Positions 18,263 through 35,555 of a DNA stretch of 64,000 bases are shown in pieces; position 1 is the stretch's first letter; each line of letters opens with the position of its first letter. The position numbers and the translations under genes were made by a program. The notes below the pieces were generated by a model. It made no database searches, was not told where the DNA came from, and saw only the letters and a list, made by a program, of their open reading frames with translations. The DNA comes from Candidatus Bathyarchaeota archaeon (GTDB lineage Archaea; Thermoproteota; Bathyarchaeia; Bathyarchaeales; Bathycorpusculaceae). Location of the stretch: positions 288,001 through 352,000 of the forward strand of contig OY970176.1 in the NCBI GenBank assembly GCA_963707955.1. Direction: 5' to 3'.

Positions 18263-18486
18263 GCTCTCTTTTCAATGTTCGTAGAGAATCCCTTTCGTTT
18301 ACTCAAGGTTAACCTCGACTACAAAAGCATCAACAAAACACTCCAAAAATGGGGATGGACGGGAGACATCCCCATCCGAACGCAAGTACCTCACCCCGCC
18401 CACTATTTAGTGACCGCATAGGCTTTTCTCATCAATATTGATATAAACCAAGAGCGGTAATATCAAACAGAAAAAAGGGGAATTGG

Positions 18487-19852: not shown

Positions 19853-20120
19853 GAAACGCGCTGTGCCCTGAGACAAAAAGCCCAATTTCTAAATTGTTCT
19901 TGCCACAGAAACGTTGTTTCGTATACAAAAGCATCAACGCAGTTCGTTCCTTCAGACTGCTTCACCCGTGCGCGGTTCCTTCGTCCAGAAGCGGGCTCCG
20001 CACTCAAGATCACAATCATTTTGAGTTCATGGGGCCAGAGTCTTCATTGCCCGCCACGCAAAACTAAAAGTATCCCACATAAAAAGCTTATACGCATCGC
20101 ACAAGTTGCTGTGAGACCTG

Positions 20121-22196: not shown

Positions 22197-22273
22197 TGGG
22201 GCCGGGGCCGGGATTTGAACCCGGGCGCTAGGCTCCACAGGCCTATAGGCTACCAAGCTACCTCACCCCGGCC
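22197..22273 (-). tRNA. trnH: tRNA-His (GUG) with encoded G-1 and CCA
   Basis: Acceptor GCCGGGG/CCCCGGC, anticodon arm TAGGC-CTGTGGA-GCCTA, T-arm CCGGG-TTCAAAT-CCCGG. Confidence 0.95.
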
Positions 22274-25729: not shown

Positions 25730-26278
25730 TCACTCCAACAGCTTTGCCATCGCTATCTCGTCTATGTACTTCCTTTCCTTGAAATGCTTTTTTGGAACCC
25801 GGCCAGTCTGCACAAACCCAACCTTCTCATAAACGTGAATTGCACGCTTATTGGTCGCAAAGACAGAGAGTACCAGAACCTTCAAACCGATCCTTTGGGC
25901 TTCCTTCACAATAGCCCGCATGACCCGCGTTCCAATGCCCAAATCCCTGAAACCGCTCTTGACAGCTATGCCAACCGCACTGGCACGCTTCTCGGAGCCT
26001 CTACCCACGTGGAGGTCAGAAGACGCAACAACCTTTCCATCCACCTCTGCAACCAAGAAAAAGATCTGACCCTTTTCCAGACGAAGAAGCACGCCGGAAA
26101 GCCACTCAGCCTCTTGCTCTCTTGACAGCTTCTCGTCCACAATTACCTCAGCCTTCTCCTCCACAAGCGAGTTAATGAGTTCCAACAAGTCGTCCAGGTC
26201 TTCCCACTTTGGAGTTCTCAAGACAACCCTGCGCCCGTCTTTAGCAGAGAAAGTCTCGAGGATTTTGCCCGACTTCAT
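25730..26278 (-). CDS. GNAT-family N-acetyltransferase
   Basis: FRDLGIGT, NKRAIHVYEKVGF. Confidence 0.92.
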   Translation of the reverse strand: MKSGKILETFSAKDGRRVVLRTPKWEDLDDLLELINSLVEEKAEVIVDEKLSREQEAEWLSGVLLRLEKGQIFFLVAEVDGKVVASSDLHVGRGSEKRASAVGIAVKSGFRDLGIGTRVMRAIVKEAQRIGLKVLVLSVFATNKRAIHVYEKVGFVQTGRVPKKHFKERKYIDEIAMAKLLE

Positions 26279-26334
26279 AAGCCAAGCTAAGGCAGCACAA
26301 CTTTAATACCTTTTCAAACCGCTCGCTCTAAATA

Positions 26335-26970
26335 GCCCCGAGACGAAGTGACCGGGGTGATGCTTTCGTATACACGGCCTTGCGCGTCGCGGAAAGCTGG
26401 GGGCTTTGGTGACATGTTAAAAACCCCTGCAATACTGTGGTCACTGAGGCCACCAGCAAGTAATCTAGATATGTTAAGCAAGCCAGAATTTCGCACTCTT
26501 GGCCTACAGTCGACAGTACAAACATGTGCACTCATGGGGGAGACGCCAGAATTTGGCTTCATTAGTTCTCAAATCCGCCCCGCAGAAGTTGGTGAAAACC
26601 CCTGAATCTGCCTCGGTGTAGGGATGCTGGCGTAGACAATAGCATCGCCAAGAGTCAGTTCGGAGCATCGGCTAACACACTGCCGGGTGCCTGGTCAAAA
26701 GAGCTGGTTCTGCCCTAGAAGGCGGTAGCCGATGGGCCAGGTTTGTGCGCAGGACACATGTGAGAACGATTTGGGTTCACAAGGCACTATCTCACAGTAC
26801 ACATTAGGCAAACAGCACGTGCAGTATTTGGAGTTGTATGAGTATTGGTCAGGTCTCCTAACGGTTTAGCTCTAAGTCATTGGAAAGGGTCGAAGTAGTT
26901 ACGAAGGTCTAGGCTGCTGGGTTCGCATGGAGATTTTCGTCGGTTCTTCTATGAGGCCCCGACCATCCAC
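26335..26970 (+). ncRNA. Putative large structured non-coding RNA (unknown family)
   Basis: No credible ORF; many complementary segments (26362-70/26900-08, 26375-81/26886-92, 26431-37/26822-28, 26495-503/26647-55, 26623-28/26641-46, 26666-74/26726-34). G-U pairs favour the + strand. Confidence 0.6.
26932..26960 (+). repeat. attL direct repeat of element 2
   Basis: GATTTTCgtCGGTTCTTCTATGAGGCCCC; 27/29 identical to 32871-32899, 20-bp exact core. Confidence 0.92.
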
Positions 26971-27155
26971 GTTATGAACCTATCCCTCAGATTTAAGGTT
27001 CTTTCGCCAAAACAAGCCTATTTCATAAAGTCGGTTTTGAGTGGTTTTTGACCATTCACTTCGAGAAAAAGCATGGTATGTTTCGAAGAAAGTCCATGAA
27101 AGCGAAGGTTTTTCGAAGTTTGATGGTCTTTTTCCATGAAAACTACTTCGAAACG

Positions 27156-27908
27156 CTAGGCTACCGGGTACTTCTCATATCTACGTCTCAAGTATGGCTG
27201 AAGACTGCGCGGATCCGCTTTAGTCTTATCTGTGACTGCCATAATGTCATGGTCCATCATGTCATAGTCATAGTTGTAGCCGAAGGCTCTCAAAAAGTGC
27301 TGAGTGATGTTTGGCAGTAAGGCTTTCACGATTTGCCATTCTCTCTTAACCCCGGCGATTTGAACGCTGTATCTATGCCTAACCGTTCCATCATGCAGCG
27401 TGTAGTCATGGCCCTTAATCAGATACCTTCTTTTCGTTAAGCTAAATGCGAACAGTCTAGGCTGATTCTTTGACCTTTTTCCTTCCTTGTCATATTCAGT
27501 TATGTCCTCTAGGTATTCCAGAATCAGCTTTGTAAAGCGCGCGCGCTCACCTTTCAGTGGCAGCCTCGCGGTTCGAAACAGAATCTTGTTAGCTTTCCTC
27601 TTGCCAACCAGAACGCCGAAGACGTTGATGTATGTCTGAGAGTCTTCTTTGTCGGCTGTGTGTTTCTCAAAGTTATCCGGCGTCAGTGGCAGGACTTCGC
27701 TGGCTCTGAAGTCACCTAGATAGAGTAGGGCAACGAGAGCGCGGTCCCTTCGCTGATAGAAGGCCATGTTAGACTTGTAGTCGATGCCAGGACTTTTCAT
27801 CAAGTTTTCATAGAGCTCTTTCGGTGTTGGATACTTCTCTATCTGCAGCAACGTGAGCCTAGAGGGTTTCTTATCTGAATCTTTTGAGGCCAAAGTCCTT
27901 CGCTTCAC
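27156..27908 (-). CDS. Divergent tyrosine recombinase/integrase
   Basis: RDRALVALLYLGDFRASEVL, TQHFLRAFG, C-terminal Tyr (LQPY); adjacent to att. Confidence 0.85.
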   Translation of the reverse strand: MKRRTLASKDSDKKPSRLTLLQIEKYPTPKELYENLMKSPGIDYKSNMAFYQRRDRALVALLYLGDFRASEVLPLTPDNFEKHTADKEDSQTYINVFGVLVGKRKANKILFRTARLPLKGERARFTKLILEYLEDITEYDKEGKRSKNQPRLFAFSLTKRRYLIKGHDYTLHDGTVRHRYSVQIAGVKREWQIVKALLPNITQHFLRAFGYNYDYDMMDHDIMAVTDKTKADPRSLQPYLRRRYEKYPVA

Positions 27909-27946
27909 TTCTTATTAGGTTTATAATAAGACCTTTTATGGATGCT

Positions 27947-28768
27947 TCAATTCTGAGAATCGGTTTCATGGTTTGCATTACCACTTCGCTCTGCGTTACG
28001 TGTTACGCTCGCATACTCGCTGCAAATCTTGATAATACTTCTTTTTATTTGCTCACGACTCAACTTAGTGATAGTTTCTATTTCAGCGATAGACTTCCCC
28101 TCTGCACGTAACTGTGCAACCTGGCCGTCTCTATCTAGGTTGCCTAATGGTAACTTCTTTTTTAACGTGAAGATTGCAACATCCTTAGAGTTAAACCTAA
28201 TAGAAGTTCTAGGTATGTTACATAAAGTCCATGATTTTCCAGATACACGATCATTGATGATTGCGGTCTGTCTGCTAACCTTGTGAATGTATAAGTCAAG
28301 GATGTCCGTGTCTAGGATTTTGCGGTCTATGAAAACGTGGCTCGGGCTGATGGCAATAAAGCCACAGTCATAATGCCTGCACATTTGGATAACGTCAAAG
28401 ATTTCCACGTTCTTTTGACTCATAAAGCGCATCCTTCCCAAGTGGATCCCCGCTTCGTCGAGGATGTAGAGTTTCTTGCCGGGCCTCTGCAGCCATAGTT
28501 TAAGGCTCTCGAGATCTGTGATCTGTGCTTCTATCATGTAGCTTTCAGTCTTGATGTTCGTGGCTATGTGAGTATGATATTTTTGAACGTAGCATATTTC
28601 AGCTAGAAGCAACGAGAAATCTGTCTTGCCCTTATCCTTCCGGCCTTTGATGACAATTACGAACCCATCTTGTTCTAGGATAGGCTCAATGTCAGGGATG
28701 ATAGGAACAAGGACTTCAGCCTTACTTGTTGGCGGCCTGGCTAATTCTGTCCCGGACATTCTTAGCAC
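27947..28768 (-). CDS. Zot-like/FtsK-HerA-type P-loop ATPase with C-terminal HTH
   Basis: IKGRKDKGKT, IATNI, YILDEAG, CRHY; C-terminal LRAEGKSIAEIETITKLSREQIKR. Confidence 0.7.
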   Translation of the reverse strand: MLRMSGTELARPPTSKAEVLVPIIPDIEPILEQDGFVIVIKGRKDKGKTDFSLLLAEICYVQKYHTHIATNIKTESYMIEAQITDLESLKLWLQRPGKKLYILDEAGIHLGRMRFMSQKNVEIFDVIQMCRHYDCGFIAISPSHVFIDRKILDTDILDLYIHKVSRQTAIINDRVSGKSWTLCNIPRTSIRFNSKDVAIFTLKKKLPLGNLDRDGQVAQLRAEGKSIAEIETITKLSREQIKRSIIKICSEYASVTRNAERSGNANHETDSQN

Positions 28769-29066
28769 TCACGGTTTTTGATTGATCGCCCACGATCATG
28801 GACAGCCTGGTCAATTCGCCAAACCTTTCCATGCCTTCGACAATTCCGTTATAGTGAATGAGCTCTTTAATAAATTCCATAGTGTCCATACCGCTTCTCA
28901 AATCTTCTAAATGGTCCAGAACCCATAAAGCAATGGCAGTGTCAGGGTCAAGCCTTGCGATTTCGACATACTCAGGGAACTTTTTGCTAATGGCCATACC
29001 TAGCGTTAAATATTGCTGAAATCTGATGTAGGCGTCTTCCTCGTTTCTTCTATTTCGTTCAGTCAT
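28722..29066 (-). CDS. Hypothetical protein
   Basis: 114-aa ORF overlapping the ATPase start. Confidence 0.6.
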   Translation of the reverse strand: MTERNRRNEEDAYIRFQQYLTLGMAISKKFPEYVEIARLDPDTAIALWVLDHLEDLRSGMDTMEFIKELIHYNGIVEGMERFGELTRLSMIVGDQSKTVSAKNVRDRISQAANK

Positions 29067-29356
29067 ATCTTATCACGTGCTGCAGGGCATATTCTTCGCG
29101 TAGACTCTCGGCGAGCGCCTTCATTGCTTCCACATCGTCTAGCGCAATGATGGTTATCAGGTTTGATATCATTCTGAGGTCTTGCGGTGTGAAGGTTGGT
29201 TTCTTTTGTTTGGGTTTCATAGTTTTCACCATGACTTTGACAGGAACATATCAAAAGTGTATGGTGAAAGCTCGAGTGTGCGGGTTTGGTTAGCGCACTG
29301 CCTCGAGCCTTCAGCTTCGCGTCGACGCGCAATAGTGCCATAGCCAACGAACACCT

Positions 29357-29575
29357 TTAAGATTTTCTCTGATTCATAGCGTTAAAGCACTTCGCATGAT
29401 AAATCGTTCTGAAAGCATCATACTCGCCATAGGCCACATGATGCTTACTGACTGTGAGGTCACCATGCCGTAAGGCTTCACTACACAGGCAACATTCAAC
29501 ATGCTTGAACCCATCAGGATCCACAAACTTGTACACGTGAAGGGGCTTCATTGGCCTAGCCTCTGAATTTCCCAT
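29357..29575 (-). CDS. Small zinc-finger protein
   Basis: CCLC...YHAKC; architecture similar to 1923-2093. Confidence 0.65.
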   Translation of the reverse strand: MGNSEARPMKPLHVYKFVDPDGFKHVECCLCSEALRHGDLTVSKHHVAYGEYDAFRTIYHAKCFNAMNQRKS

Positions 29576-29639
29576 GTAACAGAGTTACAGAGTTTATCGA
29601 GTTCCGAGAGTGTGTGACCATCCTTTTTACCATGCTTTT

Positions 29640-31037
29640 TCATGGTAGCGCACCCTCGGAACTTAGTAAACTCTGTAACTTCGTTACAAGTTCATAACCA
29701 TACTTTTTGGCAACCTTCCTAAGCTTGATGAGATCAAACTCGTAGCCTCTGACAACTACATCCTTCCCTTCGGAATCCTTCTCTCGCATAGCCTTAGACT
29801 TTCCGCTTATAACTTCTCTTAGGCGATAACCAACTTTATTCTTCGTGACCTTGAAGAAGTCACCAGTATCCATTTCGTTTGGCTTGTTCTCATTCAGTTT
29901 TCCGTCTAATTCAAGGCCTAATTCTTCCCATATCTTCTTTAAAGGCAGAGAATAAATTTGAGCCTTAGAATCAATTTGAGCCTCGTTGCATAGGTCCACA
30001 ACTACCTTAACGATTTTGCCCTCTAAAGTGTCCTGGCGGCCGCTTAACCTGGCTTTCCTCTGGTCTTCGACAAACCGGTACAAATCGCTGTAGATTGGAA
30101 GGTCACTCGTTATCTGCAGGATAGGCTTCCACAGTTCCTTGAGTCGTCCTTTCACGGTTAACTCAACATTTGGCAAGTCCTCTTGTCTACTGGTCATTCG
30201 CCACTTCAGAAGCATGTTTCTAAGGGTCCGTATGCGTTCTTTGTCAGTTCTTGACAAGTCACACCATTCTTTTTGCGGTGAGCCTTCAACCATAGACAAA
30301 AACATGAATCTCTCGTTAAACCCCTTCACTTGCGGTATCTGTTCACTAGCGCAAGCCTTGAAACAGAATGTTCGGTAATACTTGATTATGCGAGTGAAAT
30401 TCGTCATCAGAGTCCTCGGCACTACGGCGCCTTCTTTGTATCCGGCCTTGTAAATTTTGATTTTATCCGTGTCCTTTTGGATTCCTTGAACTTCATCCTC
30501 GAGTATGCAGCCTTGACCGTCAGAATCTTCCAAGTAGCCGTAGAGGTCAGCCGAAGGAATAGTGACGCCGTACATAGGCCGGTAGCATAGGCTCTTCAAG
30601 ACTTGCAGAACAGTTGATTTGCCACTTTCGTTATCGCCATAACAGAACAGGTACGGAACGGTCTGCAGTTTCTCTTGTTGATAGGTTAACAGTGTGCAGG
30701 CTGTCAAGACGTCTTTCCAAATAGGTTCAACGTCTATCCACGTTTCAAACTCGTTTCTAACCTGTCGGGCTAATTCCTCTCTTCCCGGCGTTTCTTGTTT
30801 GCAGTAGCCGTAAGGCTCGTATGGAATGTTCTGCCTCTCTTTTGGACTGATCGTTTCCTCTGCAAACTCTATCGTTTCGACCAGGCTGAAGCTGCCACCA
30901 TTCAACCGTAGAAAATAGGGTTTATCACTGTCATAGACAGCTTCAAAGCAACCATTCGAAAGAATGCCGGAGTCTTTGAGTTTCTTCCGTTGCTTCTTGT
31001 CTTTTTCTGTTTCTTCAAGTTCTTCAGTGAAGGCCAT
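29640..31037 (-). CDS. P-loop helicase-like replication protein (DUF3631-like)
   Basis: YGDNESGKSTVL, ILEDE, KAGYKEGAVVPR; follows the primase. Confidence 0.8.
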   Translation of the reverse strand: MAFTEELEETEKDKKQRKKLKDSGILSNGCFEAVYDSDKPYFLRLNGGSFSLVETIEFAEETISPKERQNIPYEPYGYCKQETPGREELARQVRNEFETWIDVEPIWKDVLTACTLLTYQQEKLQTVPYLFCYGDNESGKSTVLQVLKSLCYRPMYGVTIPSADLYGYLEDSDGQGCILEDEVQGIQKDTDKIKIYKAGYKEGAVVPRTLMTNFTRIIKYYRTFCFKACASEQIPQVKGFNERFMFLSMVEGSPQKEWCDLSRTDKERIRTLRNMLLKWRMTSRQEDLPNVELTVKGRLKELWKPILQITSDLPIYSDLYRFVEDQRKARLSGRQDTLEGKIVKVVVDLCNEAQIDSKAQIYSLPLKKIWEELGLELDGKLNENKPNEMDTGDFFKVTKNKVGYRLREVISGKSKAMREKDSEGKDVVVRGYEFDLIKLRKVAKKYGYELVTKLQSLLSSEGALP

Positions 31038-32019
31038 GTTTCTTTATCTCCTGCACGACTTCGCGGATCCCTGATATTCCTTTGAGGCATCTTTTGAGGC
31101 GGTTCTGATAGTGATAGTCAACTGAAGCAAGTCTAATGGCTCTTTGATCGTCACCGGTTCTCAGAACGACCTCTTCAATTATGCGTCTTGCCGATTCAAT
31201 GGAAACGCCTTTCCTCAGGCAGAAACCGAGAAAGTACATTTCAAGGTCGTTACGATAACCATGTATCCAATACTTGCACAGAAACGCTACGGATTTTTCC
31301 TCTTCCCTATTGCTTAATGGCTTGAAAGTCTTAGGCAGATTAAACATGGCTTGAACGTTGCTTTTCTGTTTTAAACTCAATATTCTCGCTATATCTGCTT
31401 CGCTGAAGCTGATGCCTTGAAAATCTGATAAGTACGTGTTCGGTAGAGGCGTCCAGGCTTCATGATCAAGTATTCTGGACCACTTCTGTTCTTTTTGGTG
31501 AAGGCCTAGAGGCAGCTTAACGAAGTTGCCGTAAGGCCGGTCTTCTGTCAACTCTGTTTGCTTCGGGAAAACCTCAACTTCCTTAGGATTCAAGTTTGAG
31601 AGCTCAAGTATGCGGTAGCCTAGCCACTGCGCCACTTTCGCGTCGACTGCAGGCGCGAAGAATATCCACACGTGAAAACTCGGATCAGAATATCGGCTTG
31701 CTTCCAACATGACGGCAGAAGGCCATATTCTAGGCTTCGGGGTTCCTTCCTCTTCCTTCACTTCGAAAATAACCGGCAGCAACTTGAGGACTGTTGTTTT
31801 CGGTTCTTTCAGTTTTTCCGGGTCAAAGTCAAAGCATAGGTACTTGACCGTGTTATCTGTGCCTAATTGATAGCTGCCAACAGTCTTACGACCCTGCAAG
31901 TGGTCGTTAAGCTGTTGAAAGGTCAACGGTTCCGCTATTCGACTGTAGCTTCCATCCTTATTCTGTTGACAATAACAGTCTTCCCGGTTCACGAAGAGGT
32001 CATGCAAATCAACGGCCAT
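31024..32019 (-). CDS. Archaeo-eukaryotic primase (Prim-Pol) with primase C-terminal helical domain
   Basis: CFDFD, FHVWIFF, EVFPKQ, GNFVKLPLG, GYRND. Confidence 0.88.
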   Translation of the reverse strand: MAVDLHDLFVNREDCYCQQNKDGSYSRIAEPLTFQQLNDHLQGRKTVGSYQLGTDNTVKYLCFDFDPEKLKEPKTTVLKLLPVIFEVKEEEGTPKPRIWPSAVMLEASRYSDPSFHVWIFFAPAVDAKVAQWLGYRILELSNLNPKEVEVFPKQTELTEDRPYGNFVKLPLGLHQKEQKWSRILDHEAWTPLPNTYLSDFQGISFSEADIARILSLKQKSNVQAMFNLPKTFKPLSNREEEKSVAFLCKYWIHGYRNDLEMYFLGFCLRKGVSIESARRIIEEVVLRTGDDQRAIRLASVDYHYQNRLKRCLKGISGIREVVQEIKKHGLH

Positions 32020-32030
32020 GCAGAGAACAC

Positions 32031-32168
32031 CTAAGCGCGCGCTAGCTCCTCTTGAATCAATGAATCTACAACGCCGGAAGCGGTTTTCTGTTCCAGGTCC
32101 CGGCGCTTTCTCTTGACCGCTAAAATCTTGTCCAGGTCAATCGCAACAATGGCCGTTTTGCTTGACAT
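32031..32168 (-). CDS. Small RHH-like protein (45 aa)
   Basis: Not in track: MSSKTAIVAIDLDKILAVKRKRRDLEQKTASGVVDSLIQEELARA. Confidence 0.6.
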   Translation of the reverse strand: MSSKTAIVAIDLDKILAVKRKRRDLEQKTASGVVDSLIQEELARA

Positions 32169-32169
32169 G

Positions 32170-32307
32170 TTAGACCTCTTTCAAGAATTGCTGAATTGCT
32201 GTTCGAATGGCCTCTGAAAGTGACTTGAACTTTCCTTCTTTGATTAGCTGTTCAATCCTTGTGCGTTGGTCCGGCTCTAGCCTAGTCGTTATGCGTAGGT
32301 TCTTCAT
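32170..32307 (-). CDS. CopG-like RHH protein (45 aa)
   Basis: Not in track: MKNLRITTRLEPDQRTRIEQLIKEGKFKSLSEAIRTAIQQFLKEV. Confidence 0.85.
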   Translation of the reverse strand: MKNLRITTRLEPDQRTRIEQLIKEGKFKSLSEAIRTAIQQFLKEV

Positions 32308-32321
32308 TTTTAACATCAACT

Positions 32322-32349
32322 TGTCCGAAGGCATTAAATGTCCGAAGGC
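32322..32349. promoter_or_regulatory. Operator-like direct repeat around an AT-rich TATA-like spacer
   Basis: TGTCCGAAGGC at 32322-32332 and 32339-32349 flanking ATTAAA, between divergent RHH genes. Confidence 0.6.
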
Positions 32350-32387
32350 TCAAAAAGATTTCATACACACGAAACTAAGGCGATAAC

Positions 32388-32744
32388 TTGAGCTGGATGA
32401 GTAATAGGACCGGAAGGCCAAAAAAAGAGCATGGACATAAAAGACGCAACCTCAGCCTCAACGAATTTACGAATTATGCGCTAGACATCATAAAACCATA
32501 CAGCAACATGTCAAAGTTTGTGGAAGAAGAACTGAGGCCAGGCTTAATTAGTGCCATCCACAAGGTCAAGGCCGATATTATGAAGGACCTCTCGAAAGAT
32601 AAGAGCCTAGTCGGGCGAATGTTATACAGAATCTTTGAGGCTGTCTTTGACGTCTTTCCTCTCGAACCATGCACTTCGAACTTTTCTAGCCTAAATCTAA
32701 CGCCTTTTGTCGAAATAGGCATTTCTTCAACATACACGCTTTAA
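32388..32744 (+). CDS. Divergent RHH-like regulator
   Basis: GRPKK...RRNLSLN...NMSKFVEEEL. Confidence 0.65.
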   Translation: MSWMSNRTGRPKKEHGHKRRNLSLNEFTNYALDIIKPYSNMSKFVEEELRPGLISAIHKVKADIMKDLSKDKSLVGRMLYRIFEAVFDVFPLEPCTSNFSSLNLTPFVEIGISSTYTL

Positions 32745-32870
32745 AAAAGCGAAGACGCTGCGTTCGAGGCGCAAATAACCAAAGAAGCCTATTCCTTACG
32801 TTAAGCATGTTGGAACTCTAAGCAAAAGCCTCAGTTTAAGGCGGTTTGAAGAAAAGCGGCTAAGTCCATC

Positions 32871-32899
32871 GATTTTCAACGGTTCTTCTATGAGGCCCC
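32871..32899 (+). repeat. attR direct repeat of element 2
   Basis: GATTTTCaaCGGTTCTTCTATGAGGCCCC. Confidence 0.92.
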
Positions 32900-33246
32900 A
32901 GCGAAGTCCATGCCTTGCCCTCAAGAGTGAAGGAAACTGGCCAAAATCTCTTTGCTTTCGCTCAAGGGAGCTTGCTTTGGGGTTTTCTGTTTCGTGTCCG
33001 TTGTGAAAAACTGTCAGCTGTTGCTGAAGGGTAGTTTTACGGCTGAACTTCGTACTCTAATCTGGCCTATTTTGCAGGGTTTATGTTGGGAATTCGCCGT
33101 TTTCATGAAAATGGGCCTGTCGGTTTTCGAAACGCTTTCAAAACGTAGCACTGTTCGAAACGCGCATTCTGCATGGTTAGAAGCTCATGTTATCAGTTTC
33201 TTCATATTGCTGATTTTGAAATACCACTTTAATTGCTCATCGCACT

Positions 33247-35555
33247 GTGTTTTTTGTCAGAGAAAAGATAGCAAAGGTGCCAGTCTTGCCGCCAAGCTGT
33301 TTTGGAGATGACGTTGAAACCCTTGAGAGGAACGTCAACGGAAGGAGAGTCAGTGTGAAGTGGGACTGGGGGAGCTTTGGGAGCACTGAAGGCTTTCCTG
33401 TTGATGACAACCTGATAAACTGGGCCATTGGACAAGACCAGGCCCTGAAAGAATGTTTCTTATGCCTAGATGAGTGGGTGCACAAGCTCAAGTGGCTAGA
33501 GAAGAACGAGTGGTACACGAACTGGAGTAGTCCTGACAAGTCTAAAGCCTCTGTCAAGACGCTGATCAGTCCTGGACCCTATCTCATGCTGCTGGGAGAT
33601 CCTGGAACAGGGAAATCGCTGATCGGTAGGGCCCTGTCGGAAAAGTTGACGCAAGTGTACAGCGAAAACGGCATACGATTGGCCGACGCGCTTTGTTGGA
33701 AAAACTCGGTGTTGCCCAGTCAACCCAAGATTTCGATCCACAAGGCTGGTGAAGGAAAGAAGATTGTTCAAAAAGAACAGCTCAAGGACCTTAAGAGGAA
33801 ATTCCTCACGAGGGTGGGGTTCAAGGCTCTGCAGATTTTGATGGTGGCTATGGGCTTGTTCTTGATTTGCCTCGGGTTTTACTTCATCTACCAGGGCTGG
33901 GTTACTTGGCAGTCGAACCCGCCCTATTCGGGCGAGACTCTTCAGCAATTCTACGGCAACAGTTTCCTATCTTATCTCATCGCACAGTTCGTCGGCCTAG
34001 TTCCTCTGACTTTCATCCCAGGTGGAAGCCTTGTGTTCTTCGGAGTTTTCTTGTGGTGGCTTTCCAAGATGGGTGGAATGGCAAACCTCAAGGGTATCGG
34101 AGGCGCCCAACAGTCTGACGCTCCGAAGCTGATCGTCGACAACAGTTCCGGCTATGCGCCTTTTATTGACGCGACGGGACATAGGACTGCCCAGCTTTTC
34201 GGTTCAATAGCTTGGGATCCGTATCAAACTGGCGGCTTGGGCACTCCTGAGCATCAGAGGGTTAGTGCTGGAGACGTGCACGTGGCGTCTTTGGGCATCC
34301 TTTACATAGACGAGATAAAGAACCTTGACGCTGAGGAAACCGTAACGCTGCTGACAGTGCTGGAAGACGGACAGCTGCCGATAACTTTGCGAGGCAGATT
34401 CAACGGCGGAGACACGGCGGCAATGGCAGTTTCAACGGAACCCGTTCCTTCGATAACGTTTCTTGTCGGCGCTGGGAACTTTGACAGCATAGGACAGATT
34501 CATCCTGCTCTCATGGACAGAATATACGGATACGGCAAAGTCGTGCGCATGAACAACGACATGCCGAACACCATCGAAAACAGGCGCAAGTACGTTCAGT
34601 TTATAACACAGGAGGTCAAACGCTTCAACCTCATCCCGTTCACCAGAGACGCATGCGAAGAAATAGTTGAGGAAGGCAGACGAAGAAGCGACAAAAAGTA
34701 TGCGTTAACAACAAAGTTCAGACCGCTGATCTCGATCATTAAGACCGCTTCGACGCTGGCGATGAATGAGAATGCCGCGATCGTGGAAAGAAGACACGTG
34801 ATTGAAGCCGTTGAACAGCATTGTAAGACCATCCAGAGGCAGATACTCGAGCACAGCATTCAAGAGAGGGGAAACTCCTGGAGATCGAACCAAAGGGAGC
34901 CAAGCTGGGACAAATACACGGCCTAGCCGTTGTCCAAGACTCCTACAGCGGTGAAATGACGGGCAGCGTGTTGAACGTGAAGGCTCAAATGGTCAAGAGA
35001 AGCGCGCTTGCAAGAGACTACTCCTTCAAAGGATACTACAAAGTGACGGGGGCCGCCAAAGGTCAGAGCTTCATTTCAGACAGCATAGCCAAAGTTAGAA
35101 GCGTGATTCTGCAGAAGTACGGCGTGGACATCGCGCAGGACTATCTCACCCACATCGACTTTGCGCAGTCTTACGGCATAGATGGACCATCAGCGGGCGT
35201 TACGATGGCGATTCTGCTGTGCTCACTTATCGAGGGAAAACCGATAAGACAGGACGTCGCAGTCACAGGAGAAATCAACCTTGGCGTTGGAGAATCCATT
35301 CAGGTAACGGCCGTCGGAGGCGTCTACGAGAAGATCAAGTCCGCAGAAGCATGGGGGTTCAAGAAAGTTGTCATTCCGCAAAAAAACTATGAGAATTCCA
35401 TAGACATCAGGGACTACAAGATTGAAGTCGCTCCTGCGGCAACCTTGGACGATTATTTGAAGGCGTGTCTCGTTGAGACGCCTGTGCTCAAGGTTCCAGT
35501 CCAGGCTTGGAGGCGCAACGTGCGGGCTAACGCTACGAGAAGCGCCAGAATGTAG
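33247..35555 (+). CDS. lonB: Archaeal membrane-bound Lon protease (LonB); frameshift at ~34873
   Basis: GDPGTGKS, TM insert, GILYIDEI, IDGPSAG and catalytic K; adding one A at GGAAAC restores GKLLEIEPKGAKLGQIHGLAVV. Confidence 0.9.

What the first reader, a model, noticed from the sequence alone, without database searches (positions are those of the whole stretch)
26335..26970. Unannotated ~640-nt highly structured RNA candidate in an archaeon
Seen: an intergenic stretch with no credible ORF but many complementary segments. The 5' and 3' ends close on each other (GCTTTCGTA 26362/TACGAAGGT 26900; CGGCCTT 26375/AGGGTCG 26886). Inner helices: AATACTG 26431/CAGTATT 26822, ACTCTTGGC 26495/GCCAAGAGT 26647, GATGCT 26623/AGCATC 26641, CATCGGCTA 26666/TAGCCGATG 26726. 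GTTCTCA 26565/TGAGAAC 26761 would cross these as a pseudoknot. Internal direct repeats include AAAACCCCTG x2, GCCAGAATTT x2 and ACAGTACA x2. I could not find the hallmark motifs of RNase P, SRP, tmRNA or group I/II introns. Inference: a new large ncRNA of the size class of bacterial OLE/ROOL/GOLLD RNAs. Being an integrase target suggests it is conserved.
Basis: partly seen in the sequence, partly recalled or inferred. Interest (0 to 1): 0.85.

Follow-up and report, generated by a model that had tools for sequence, protein, structure and literature searches.

The report
Conserved non-coding element upstream of LonB
A gene-free stretch kept next to the LonB protease gene across one family of uncultured archaea, and used as a landing site by a mobile element, is real and conserved, but it does not behave like the large folded RNA it was taken for.

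Summary
The "many helices" are no more than chance gives: 15 complementary 7-mers against 11.7±4.1 in shuffles. The fold is no better than shuffles (z +1.39). None of the seven proposed helices shows a compensatory change. No Rfam family matches. RNase P and SRP RNAs lie elsewhere in the genome.

What is real is a family-wide syntenic non-coding locus between GNAT(-) and LonB(+), in three parts:
- **Core.** About 300 bp, bounded by inverted copies of a 31-nt motif. The motif is found in 186 of 201 family genomes and also occurs as solo copies.
- **Spacer.** Fast-evolving and variable in length.
- **3' block.** About 70 nt and nearly invariant, with a dyad (CATGGAGA/TCCATG) around a T-rich loop.

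The 3' block is the attachment site of a 5.9-kb integrated element, flanked by 29-nt direct repeats, that carries a primase-polymerase and a weakly XerC-like gene.

The arms of the inverted motif pair do not covary, so it is a repeated recognition sequence rather than a maintained helix. My best reading (0.45) is a + strand, sequence-constrained, weakly structured regulatory RNA or lonB leader. A purely DNA-level regulatory region is the main rival (0.3). Transcription could not be tested.

The parts
25730..26278 (-). GNAT acetyltransferase gene, left neighbour, first gene of a - strand run (GNAT, UPF0047/YjbQ, PNP_UDP_1)
   Evidence: Pfam PF00583 E 1.3e-17, PF01894, PF01048. GNAT or UPF0047 was found left of the element in 14 of 19 related loci.
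26344..26373 (+). Copy 1 of the 31-nt family motif (core GATGCTTTCGTATAC at 26359-26373), 5' boundary of the conserved core
   Evidence: The motif is present in 186 of 201 family genomes.
26374..26631 (+). Inner core: conserved sequence blocks (TGGTGA, GTAATAC, two TCACCA-like blocks, GCCTACAG..ACAAA, GGTGAAA) at nearly fixed spacing. The + strand is A-rich and poor in T runs.
   Evidence: Alignments A3 and A4. The distance between the motif copies is 258-275 nt in 21 homologues. Mean folding z is -0.68 (+) and -1.02 (-).
26632..26661 (-). Copy 2 of the motif in inverted orientation (GTAGACAATAGCATC on the + strand, 2 mismatches in G000; perfect in many other genera)
   Evidence: The two arms do not covary: 66.7% paired against 66.9% in shuffles.
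26662..26889 (.). Fast-evolving spacer, variable in length between genera
   Evidence: Identity of G000 to G001/G007/G010 is 0.87/0.70/0.61, against 0.91/0.81/0.79 for the core. It cannot be aligned between genera.
26890..26960 (+). 3' block: TCGAAG-N7-CGAAG-N13-GGTTCG, then dyad arm CATGGAGA (26926-26933) and the T-rich loop GATTTTCGTCGGTTCTTCTATGAGGCCCC. Nearly invariant across the family.
   Evidence: An 18-nt pattern from it was found in 36 of 48 further family genomes, mostly as a single copy.
26932..26960 (+). attL: left copy of the 29-nt direct repeat
   Evidence: the repeat finder family D1, spacing 5939; BLAST.
26961..32870 (.). Integrated element of about 5.9 kb, absent from this site in G001, G007 and G010
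   Evidence: Relatives run straight from GAGGCCCC into AGCGAAGTCCATG, which in G000 follows at 32900.
27156..27908 (-). Candidate tyrosine recombinase of the element (P0001), next to attL
   Evidence: Only weak hits to XerC/XerD models (E 0.0039, 16.6 bits against a cut-off of 335). No Pfam, PHROG, PDB or phage hit. The structure model was unusable (pLDDT 35.5). R..ASE / HxLR / Y motifs were seen by eye and named from recall.
31024..32019 (-). Archaeo-eukaryotic primase-polymerase of the element
   Evidence: PF22548 E 3.8e-26; phrog_5362 E 6.2e-23; NF040561 E 8.5e-27.
32871..32899 (+). attR: right copy of the direct repeat (27 of 29 identical)
32900..32912 (+). Displaced native 3' flank with the second dyad arm (TCCATG at 32907-32912)
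   Evidence: TCCATG or TCTCCATG is kept in this place in 11 of 12 aligned genera.
33247..34926 (+). LonB (AAA+ part), right neighbour
   Evidence: PF20436 E 1.4e-10. LonB was found right of the element in 17 of 19 related loci.
19921..19935 (-). Solo copy of the motif (perfect) in the gap between the KH-domain gene and a metallo-beta-lactamase-fold gene
18317..18331 (-). Solo copy of the motif (2 mismatches) between a 188-aa ORF and the RIO1 kinase gene

Best explanation
The 640-nt stretch is not one large folded RNA. It is a composite non-coding locus, specific to one archaeal family, in the roughly 1-kb gap between the divergent GNAT operon and lonB. It has a ~300-bp core bounded by inverted copies of a 31-nt motif, a free-evolving spacer, and a ~70-nt nearly invariant block with a dyad around a T-rich loop. 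I think it is most likely transcribed on the + strand, as a stand-alone small RNA or as the leader of the lonB message. The RNA would be constrained in sequence but only weakly structured. Its conserved blocks, and the motif with its complement, would act as recognition sequences for a protein or for other copies of the motif, not as a self-contained tertiary fold. The 3' block would be the 3' stem-loop of that unit, and a tyrosine-recombinase-type element uses it as attB, much as such elements use the ends of tRNA genes. Shown here: conservation, synteny, absence of coding, the motif's distribution, absence of covariation, and the insertion. Inferred: transcription, the strand, and any regulatory role.
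For: - Homology and synteny. The full length is found in 3 same-genus genomes at 90, 80 and 75% identity. The 3' block is found in 25 of 36 family genomes by BLAST. A profile then finds the 5' half at the matching place in 14 further loci of other genera. LonB lies to the right in 17 of 19 loci, and GNAT or UPF0047 to the left in 14 of 19.
- Constraint. The core aligns across genera whose GNAT is only 58-72% identical in protein. The two motif copies stay 258-275 nt apart in 21 homologues.
- Not coding.
- Strand asymmetry kept in 21 homologues. The + strand is A 33.6, C 23.3, G 19.8, T 23.4%, with 41 runs of A>=5 against 4 runs of T>=5, three of the four at alignment columns 227-230. Oligo-T tracts are archaeal termination signals (established knowledge), so a - strand transcript would be cut short repeatedly and a + strand one would not.
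- The first ~150 nt (motif plus downstream blocks) occurs as extra partial copies in one genus, as a unit read in the + direction.
- The insertion. 29-nt direct repeats, an empty site in relatives, and the crossover region in the loop of the dyad. The element's own arms are diverged copies of the whole block, and the arm joined to the core side supplies TCCACG in place of TCCATG, so 5 of 6 dyad pairs are restored at attL but not at attR (read by eye). This is what elements that target the 3' ends of RNA genes do (established for tRNA genes).
- A test without alignment (native against chimeric duplex energy) gives a few segment pairs better than chance. The best is columns 45-66 with 243-264: -1.6 kcal/mol, 0 of 300 permutations, among about 380 pairs tested.
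Against: - No transcript evidence of any kind is at hand.
- No helix tested is supported by covariation. The motif pair is 66.7% paired against 66.9% in shuffles. The two TGGTGA hairpins are 67.9 against 68.6% and 71.4 against 72.5%. RNAalifold finds nothing in the core or its parts and only a weak G-U-rich hairpin in the 3' block, without covariation.
- Folding energies are close to shuffles on both strands.
- Short conserved words in both orientations (TGGTGA/TCACCA, CGAAG/CTTCG, CATGGAGA/TCCATG) and a motif that occurs in either orientation relative to genes are what arrays of protein-binding sites in DNA look like.
- The A-run excess is largely explained by base composition: (0.336/0.234)^5 is about 6, against 10 observed.
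- No consistent TATA-like box lies about 30 nt upstream of motif copy 1 (read by eye).
- Within the genus the core is less conserved than GNAT third codon positions: 0.81 and 0.79 against 0.87 for G007 and G010.
- The duplex-test signal is about what three times the chance rate would give, and it was not verified.
Confidence: 0.45

Rival explanations
1. A purely DNA-level regulatory region. The core and the 3' block would be arrays of binding sites for one or more sequence-specific proteins that control the divergent lonB and GNAT-operon promoters. The 3' block would be the lonB promoter with a palindromic operator over a TATA-like T-rich box. The 31-nt motif would be the site of a family-specific DNA-binding protein that also binds the solo copies.
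For: There is no covariation and no excess folding energy. Short words repeat in both orientations. The motif is self-contained: information runs only from -15 to +16 in 44 non-redundant solo copies. It stands in intergenic DNA in either orientation relative to genes. Its copies cluster within 6-13 kb around the LonB locus in several genomes (listing; G000). Where the inner inverted copy has decayed (G008, G006), another good inverted copy lies 250-300 nt beyond the 3' block. That fits a need for two sites rather than for a fixed helix. TTTTTATA followed about 22 nt later by conserved CCATG has the spacing of an archaeal TATA box and start site (spacing read by eye; the rule is from established knowledge).
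Against: About 300 bp of contiguous conservation with fixed length across dozens of genera is far more than usual for operators. The strand asymmetry of composition kept in 21 homologues is not expected of symmetric protein sites. The genes next to solo copies have no common theme: MoxR-like AAA, aminotransferase, LysE, GalT-like, YjeF, a nuclease. G000 and G010 have TTCTTCTA in place of the TATA-like box. After the insertion, lonB in G000 has lost the left half of the supposed operator. No candidate regulator gene was found nearby.
Confidence: 0.3
2. One reading: one large (~640 nt), highly structured non-coding RNA of the OLE/ROOL/GOLLD size class.
For: It is long, conserved, non-coding and syntenic, with no Rfam match. 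Integration at its 3' end is as for RNA genes. There are weak hints of pairing between some variable segments. MAFFT alignments of variable parts are poor, so hairpins that move by a few bases could be missed.
Against: The folding z is +1.39. Helix d is 52.5% paired across the family. The complementary words are at chance level. The middle third is an unconserved spacer of variable length. In one genus the second half of the core is missing between motif copy 1 and the 3' block.
Confidence: 0.07
3. A domesticated or decayed mobile element. The core would be a MITE-like unit with 31-nt terminal inverted repeats, fixed long ago between GNAT and LonB. The solo motif copies would be scattered ends.
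For: There are inverted terminal copies of one motif 258-275 nt apart. Copy number varies from 1 to 16, with solo copies and sub-families sharing flanks. One genus has partial extra copies.
Against: The profile search found one full-length core in each LonB-linked locus, always in the same place and orientation, and none in the other loci held. BLAST found none elsewhere in G000. The inner blocks are conserved across the family, which decaying transposon relics are not. No transposase was found nearby. About 40 of 201 genomes hold only the one pair (my count from the table).
Confidence: 0.08
4. A chromosome-level site: a replication origin (inverted recognition boxes around an unwinding element) or a centromere-like cluster of binding sites.
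For: There is an inverted pair of a conserved box, and further boxes cluster within some kilobases.
Against: The two Orc1/Cdc6 genes lie at 692 kb and 1457 kb, and the locus at 314 kb. The cumulative GC skew has no turning point there. The core is not A+T-rich (GC 0.50-0.52 against 0.479 for the genome). It holds conserved sequence blocks where an unwinding element would be free to vary. No partition genes were found in the parts annotated, about 12.9-21.1 kb, 23.0-26.3 kb and 33.2-38.7 kb of the window.
Confidence: 0.04

Closest known systems
Large bacterial non-coding RNAs OLE, ROOL, GOLLD
   Same: It is long, conserved, intergenic and non-coding, was found by comparative reading, and has no known function.
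   Different: Those families are defined by extensive covariation-supported secondary structure. Here no helix covaries, folding equals shuffles, and the middle is an unconserved spacer. No Rfam model matches at E up to 10.
tRNA/tmRNA gene 3' ends as attB sites of tyrosine-recombinase elements (established knowledge)
   Same: There is a short direct repeat at both junctions, and the crossover lies in the loop of a dyad in a highly conserved sequence. The element carries a diverged copy of the target that partly restores it on the side joined to the body.
   Different: The target is not a tRNA or tmRNA and is not shown to be an RNA gene at all. The recombinase is only weakly recognisable.
Dispersed short repeats that serve as binding sites (bacterial REP elements, parS sites) or as ends of MITEs
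   Same: It is a 31-nt self-contained motif at 1-16 copies per genome, intergenic, in both orientations, partly clustered, and conserved over many genera.
   Different: The motif has no internal palindrome of the REP type. No partner protein is known. One inverted pair sits at a fixed syntenic place in nearly every genome of the family.
Archaeal promoter-operator regions, where a palindromic operator spans the TATA box and start site of a stress gene (general knowledge, recalled)
   Same: The 3' block has a dyad around a T-rich TATA-like box, about 300-400 nt upstream of lonB.
   Different: About 40 nt are nearly invariant, including positions outside the dyad. The distance to the lonB start is long. 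Neither a regulator nor a start site has been shown.

Membership tests
Archaeal RNase P RNA (RF00373) | Match to the covariance model at the locus | tested here: not met
   There is no RNase P hit in 26200-27200 at E up to 10. The genome's RNase P RNA is at G000:C1:846859-847165, 187.4 bits.
Archaeal SRP RNA (RF01857) | Match to the covariance model at the locus | tested here: not met
   No hit at the locus. The SRP RNA is at G000:C1:685422-685736, 152.2 bits.
Any Rfam 15 family (including OLE, ROOL, GOLLD, group I/II introns, tmRNA) | Match at or near the gathering score | tested here: not met
   In the whole window the only match is a tRNA at 22206-22267. At the locus there are two chance-level matches, 20.9 bits against 70 and 16.1 against 47. 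Eight homologous loci give one match, at 26.3 bits against 88.
Structured non-coding RNA (generic) | Helices supported by compensatory changes among homologues | tested here: not met
   in every test the observed pairing equals the shuffled pairing. 0 of 54 reader pairs has a change on both sides.
Structured non-coding RNA (generic) | Folding energy below that of dinucleotide shuffles | tested here: not met
   z is +1.39 (+) and -0.16 (-) for the whole stretch. Mean z is -0.68 and -1.02 for the inner core of 21 homologues.
Structured non-coding RNA (generic) | A transcript of defined strand and ends | not testable with these tools
   None of the 20 listed holder runs is on record as RNA.
attB of an integrative element | Direct repeats at both junctions, and an uninterrupted site in relatives | tested here: met
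   The 29-nt repeat is 27/29 identical with spacing 5939. G001, G007 and G010 are continuous across the site.
attB of an integrative element | A site-specific recombinase gene next to a junction | tested here: inconclusive
   P0001 matches XerC at E 0.0039, far below the cut-off. There are no Pfam, PHROG, PDB or phage hits. The model has pLDDT 35.5.
Protein-coding gene / small ORF | An ORF kept in homologues, and three-base periodicity of conservation | tested here: not met
   One- and two-base indels occur between close relatives.
Archaeal replication origin | Next to orc1/cdc6, a turn in the skew, an A+T-rich unwinding element between inverted boxes | tested here: not met
MITE / transposon relic | Terminal inverted repeats | tested here: met
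MITE / transposon relic | Several full-length copies at different sites | tested here: not met
   There is one full-length core per locus set, always beside LonB, and a single full match in G000.
tRNA gene | Cloverleaf found by ARAGORN or Rfam | tested here: not met
   The only one is tRNA-His at 22197-22272.

The most novel reading that the evidence does not exclude
The locus encodes a family-wide + strand RNA that begins with the 31-nt motif and carries the motif's perfect complement about 270 nt downstream. Through that anti-motif it would pair with its own 5' end and with the motif copies that stand in up to 16 other intergenic regions or transcripts. That would make it a master antisense regulator or sponge, tied to the lonB locus, of a kind not described in archaea. 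The invariance of both arms without covariation would then come from the need to match many partners at once.
Probability: 0.12. Interest if true: 0.7.

Novelty: new member of a known kind. Interest (0 to 1): 0.4.

Why it matters
If the element is transcribed, it would give a first lineage-specific regulatory RNA, with an unusual motif/anti-motif layout, for a large family of uncultured sediment and soil archaea. It would also tie that RNA to the main membrane protease gene, lonB. If it works as DNA, it marks an unusually large, deeply conserved control region and a 31-nt site for an unknown family-specific binding protein. Either way the 3' block is a defined attB for a small primase-bearing integrative element, which helps in finding such elements in related genomes. 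For the scan itself, the case shows that lists of complementary words in a 600-nt stretch carry no weight without shuffles and homologues.

Tried and rejected
- **Known RNA families.** Rfam at the gathering score on the window. Rfam at E up to 10 on the locus, on 16 loci with solo motifs (none) and on 8 homologous loci (one chance-level hit).
- **Coding.** Rejected. A 31-codon - strand ORF starting at the conserved CCATG was read by eye and rejected: it is out of frame in L005, and the wobble positions are invariant.
- **The motif as a promoter or transcript start with a fixed TATA.** Rejected. There is no information or A+T peak at any fixed distance on either side in 44 solo copies.
- **The motif as a regulon marker.** The downstream genes are unrelated.
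- **Guide-RNA idea.** The core has no complementarity to the rest of the genome beyond chance; the best match is 14 nt at E 2.1.
- **Origin or centromere.**
- **Invertible segment.** All 21 homologues have the core in one orientation relative to LonB.
- **Reads laid on the stretch.** Read laying on four DNA runs gave no joints, no inverted form and no empty site. These are contigs, so this says nothing either way.
- **Expression.** No RNA holder was listed among 20 runs. The holders with large shares are labelled freshwater sediment metagenomes and may be the source of this DNA.
- **The integrase.** The structure model was unusable, so no fold search was run. Searches of PDB, phages, Pfam and PHROGs were empty.
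- **Small hairpins** (after motif copy 1, the TGGTGA hairpins, the A-run/T-run hairpin at columns 207-232). They looked promising by eye, but RNAalifold and pair counts gave nothing. One sub-family of solo copies in G172 likewise gave nothing.
- **Papers.**
  - No paper holds the 15-nt motif or its complement, in DNA or RNA letters.
  - A search for 'Bathyarchaeia' with 'noncoding RNA' listed 4 papers. I saw only the listing and the starts of the abstracts; none is relevant. The lineage name was my guess. No tool named the organism, and I did not try to trace the record.
  - Supplements were not consulted.
- **Spread outside the family.**
  - By BLAST, 0 of 24 genomes of other families of the order match.
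  - The 18-nt 3'-block pattern at up to 2 mismatches hit 24 of 252 genomes of other families of the class. A reversed-pattern control hit 9 of them (my count from the table). One variant recurs three times in one family.
  - Diverged relatives outside the family are therefore possible but not shown.
Full report
The stretch 26279-27155 lies between the GNAT gene (25730-26278, - strand) and the first ORF of what turns out to be an inserted element. It holds only ORFs of 40-85 aa.

The number of complementary words is what chance gives:
- 7-mers: 15 pairs, against 11.65 +/- 4.12 in 500 dinucleotide shuffles (124 of 500 reach 15).
- 9-mers: 2 pairs, against 0.75 (87 of 500).

The whole stretch folds no better than its shuffles. 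The + strand gives -202.5 against -210.9 +/- 6.0 kcal/mol (z +1.39), and 18 of 20 shuffles fold at least as well. The - strand gives z -0.16.

**Known families.** Rfam 15 gives nothing at the locus:
- At the gathering score over the window, only a tRNA at 22206-22267.
- At E up to 10 over 26200-27200, two chance-level hits.
- In 8 homologous loci, one hit at 26 bits against a threshold of 88.

The genome's RNase P RNA (187 bits) and SRP RNA (152 bits) lie elsewhere. ARAGORN finds only tRNA-His at 22197-22272.

**Homologues and synteny.**
- BLAST over 61 genomes found the full length only in three same-genus genomes (90, 80 and 75% identity).
- The last ~90 nt were found in 25 of 36 genomes of the family, and in 0 of 24 genomes of other families of the order.
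- A profile of the four full sequences then found the 5' half in 14 further loci of other genera, each 500-600 nt upstream of the conserved end.
- LonB lies to the right in 17 of 19 loci, starting some 300-400 nt after the conserved end. GNAT or UPF0047 lies to the left in 14 of 19. The rest are limited by the flank held or by contig ends.

The thing is therefore a family-wide, single-copy, syntenic non-coding locus in a roughly 1-kb divergent gap. It is not coding:
- Close relatives differ by one- and two-base indels.
- No 25-codon window is open in more than 14 of 21 homologues.
- Conservation has no period of three.

**Anatomy.** The 18- and 21-sequence alignments show three parts.
- **Core.** About 300 bp, bounded by GATGCTTYYGTATAC (window 26359-26373) and its reverse complement (26632-26646, two mismatches in G000). 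The two copies lie 258-275 nt apart in 21 homologues. Between them are short invariant blocks at nearly fixed spacing.
- **Spacer.** It cannot be aligned between genera and evolves fast within the genus. Identity of G000 to G001/G007/G010 is 0.87/0.70/0.61, against 0.91/0.81/0.79 for the core.
- **3' block.** It reads TCGAAG-N7-CGAAG-N13-GCTTCGCATGGAGATTTTCGTCGGTTTTTATATGAGGCC, then 6-9 variable bases and (TC)TCCATG. It is nearly invariant across the family. An 18-nt pattern from it hits 36 of 48 further family genomes, mostly once per genome.

**The bounding motif is a genome-wide element.**
- The 15-nt pattern, at up to one mismatch, is in 186 of 201 family genomes (95 of 98 high-quality genomes; 61 of 70 genera). 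A reversed-pattern control gives 0-3 hits per strand per genome.
- About 40 genomes have exactly one forward and one reverse copy, which is the pair of this locus (my count from that table).
- Other genomes have up to 16 copies. In several genomes these are bunched within 6-13 kb around the LonB locus (listing). In G000 the copies are at window 18317, 19921, 26359 and 26632.
- In 44 non-redundant solo copies, information runs from -15 to +16 (AAACTGTGTTTTGGT(T)GATGCTTTTGTATAC). There is no fixed-distance signal on either side.
- The copies are intergenic, in either orientation to the neighbouring genes, and the genes next to them are unrelated.
- Where the inner reverse copy has decayed (G008) or was not found (G006), a good reverse copy lies 250-300 nt beyond the 3' block. 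The truncated G005 locus has one there too.

**Structure tests.**
- RNAalifold on 21 cores gives 4 pairs and -1.2 kcal/mol, and nothing on two sub-segments.
- The 31-pair "closing helix" formed by the motif pair is 66.7% paired against 66.9 +/- 1.1 in column shuffles (310 of 500 at least as high). Its covariation score is 0.121 against 0.119. The arms are complementary only because both keep one consensus.
- The two possible TGGTGA/TCACCA hairpins are 67.9 against 68.6% and 71.4 against 72.5% paired.
  - 0 of 54 pairs has a change on both sides.
  - 16 pairs vary only by breaking.
  - Helices c and f are 67.9 and 77.8% paired.
Helix d alone is 52.5% paired.
- The inner core folds with mean z -0.68 (+) and -1.02 (-) over 21 homologues.
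- Hairpins seen by eye did not survive the counts.
- A test without alignment (native against chimeric duplex energies) gave a few segment pairs at or below 1 in 300 among about 380 tested. The best was columns 45-66 with 243-264 (examples). This is a weak hint and was not verified.
- The 3' block gives a weak, G-U-rich consensus hairpin without covariation. The dyad CATGGAGA/TCCATG has an invariant 5' arm, so it cannot be tested by covariation.

**The strand.** In 21 homologues the + strand of the core is A 33.6, C 23.3, G 19.8, T 23.4%. It has 41 runs of five or more A against 4 of five or more T, and three of those four are at columns 227-230. Archaeal RNA polymerase terminates at oligo-T (established knowledge). 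A - strand transcript would therefore be cut repeatedly, and a + strand one would pass. Composition alone predicts about a six-fold excess, so this is a lean and not proof.

**The insertion.**
- A 29-nt direct repeat (26932-26960 and 32871-32899, 27/29 identical) flanks 5.9 kb.
- G001, G007 and G010 run straight from GAGGCCCC into AGCGAAGTCCATG, which in G000 follows at 32900.
- The element encodes:
  - a primase-polymerase;
  - a 273-aa P-loop/HTH protein;
  - next to attL, a 250-aa protein whose only matches are XerC/XerD models at E 0.004-0.09. Its structure model was unusable.
- The crossover region is the loop of the dyad.
- The element's arms are diverged copies of the whole block.
  - The arm joined to the core side supplies TCCACG for TCCATG.
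  - The right-hand flank it brings resembles that of another sub-clade of the genus.

**Reading.** What remains is a deeply conserved non-coding locus whose constraint is on sequence words and spacing, not on pairing. I favour a + strand, weakly structured regulatory RNA or lonB leader (0.45). My reasons are the length and continuity of the conservation, the strand asymmetry, the unit-like extra copies of the 5' part in one genus, and the RNA-gene-like way the integrative element treats the 3' block.

The main rival (0.3) is that all of this is read as DNA by sequence-specific proteins that control the two divergent promoters. No tool could show transcription: none of the 20 listed runs is on record as RNA. 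That remains the decisive gap.

Noticed in passing
window 33247-34926 and 34956-35555: LonB is read as two ORFs in different frames. The AAA+/LonB-LID part and the Lon_C protease domain are separated by about 30 nt. This could be a frameshift, a sequencing error or a real split.
   Followed up: no
window 18317-18331 and 19921-19935 (- strand): Two solo copies of the 31-nt family motif lie in intergenic gaps of a housekeeping cluster (aIF2-beta, RIO1 kinase, KH/PNO1-like, metallo-beta-lactamase fold) 6-8 kb from the LonB element. After the copy at 19921, read in the motif's direction, about 50 nt follow and then a run of five T.
   Followed up: partly
L055, L060, L066, L067 and L054, L061, L063, L064 (genome G172): Sub-families of solo motif copies share more than the motif. 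One set shares a stretch of ~75-110 nt after the motif that ends in a T run. The other shares a stretch of ~150 nt before it. These may be small RNA genes. There was no Rfam hit and no consensus fold from four copies.
   Followed up: partly
L005 (G008), L006 (G005), L016 (G006), between the 3' block and LonB: G008 and G006, whose inner reverse motif copy is degenerate or was not found, carry a good reverse copy 250-300 nt beyond the 3' block, just upstream of LonB. The truncated G005 locus has one there too.
   Followed up: partly
L038, L039 (genus g17): Partial extra copies or a rearranged version of the element. Only the first ~150 nt of the core follow motif copy 1. In L039 the 3' block lies about 420 nt from motif copy 1, and the reverse motif copy lies beyond it.
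   Followed up: partly
window 32082-32100 and 32981-32999: A second short direct repeat (19 nt, 84% identical) links the inner right end of the integrated element and the chromosomal flank beyond attR. It may be further attP/attB homology or chance.
   Followed up: no
window 26961-32870: A small integrated element with a primase-polymerase, a P-loop/HTH protein, a 465-aa protein with only weak Walker-A-like hits, and several ORFs without any family. No capsid or other virus hallmark gene was recognised.
   Followed up: partly
window 22197-22272 (- strand): tRNA-His. Rfam matched only model positions 6-65, while ARAGORN gives the full gene.
   Followed up: no
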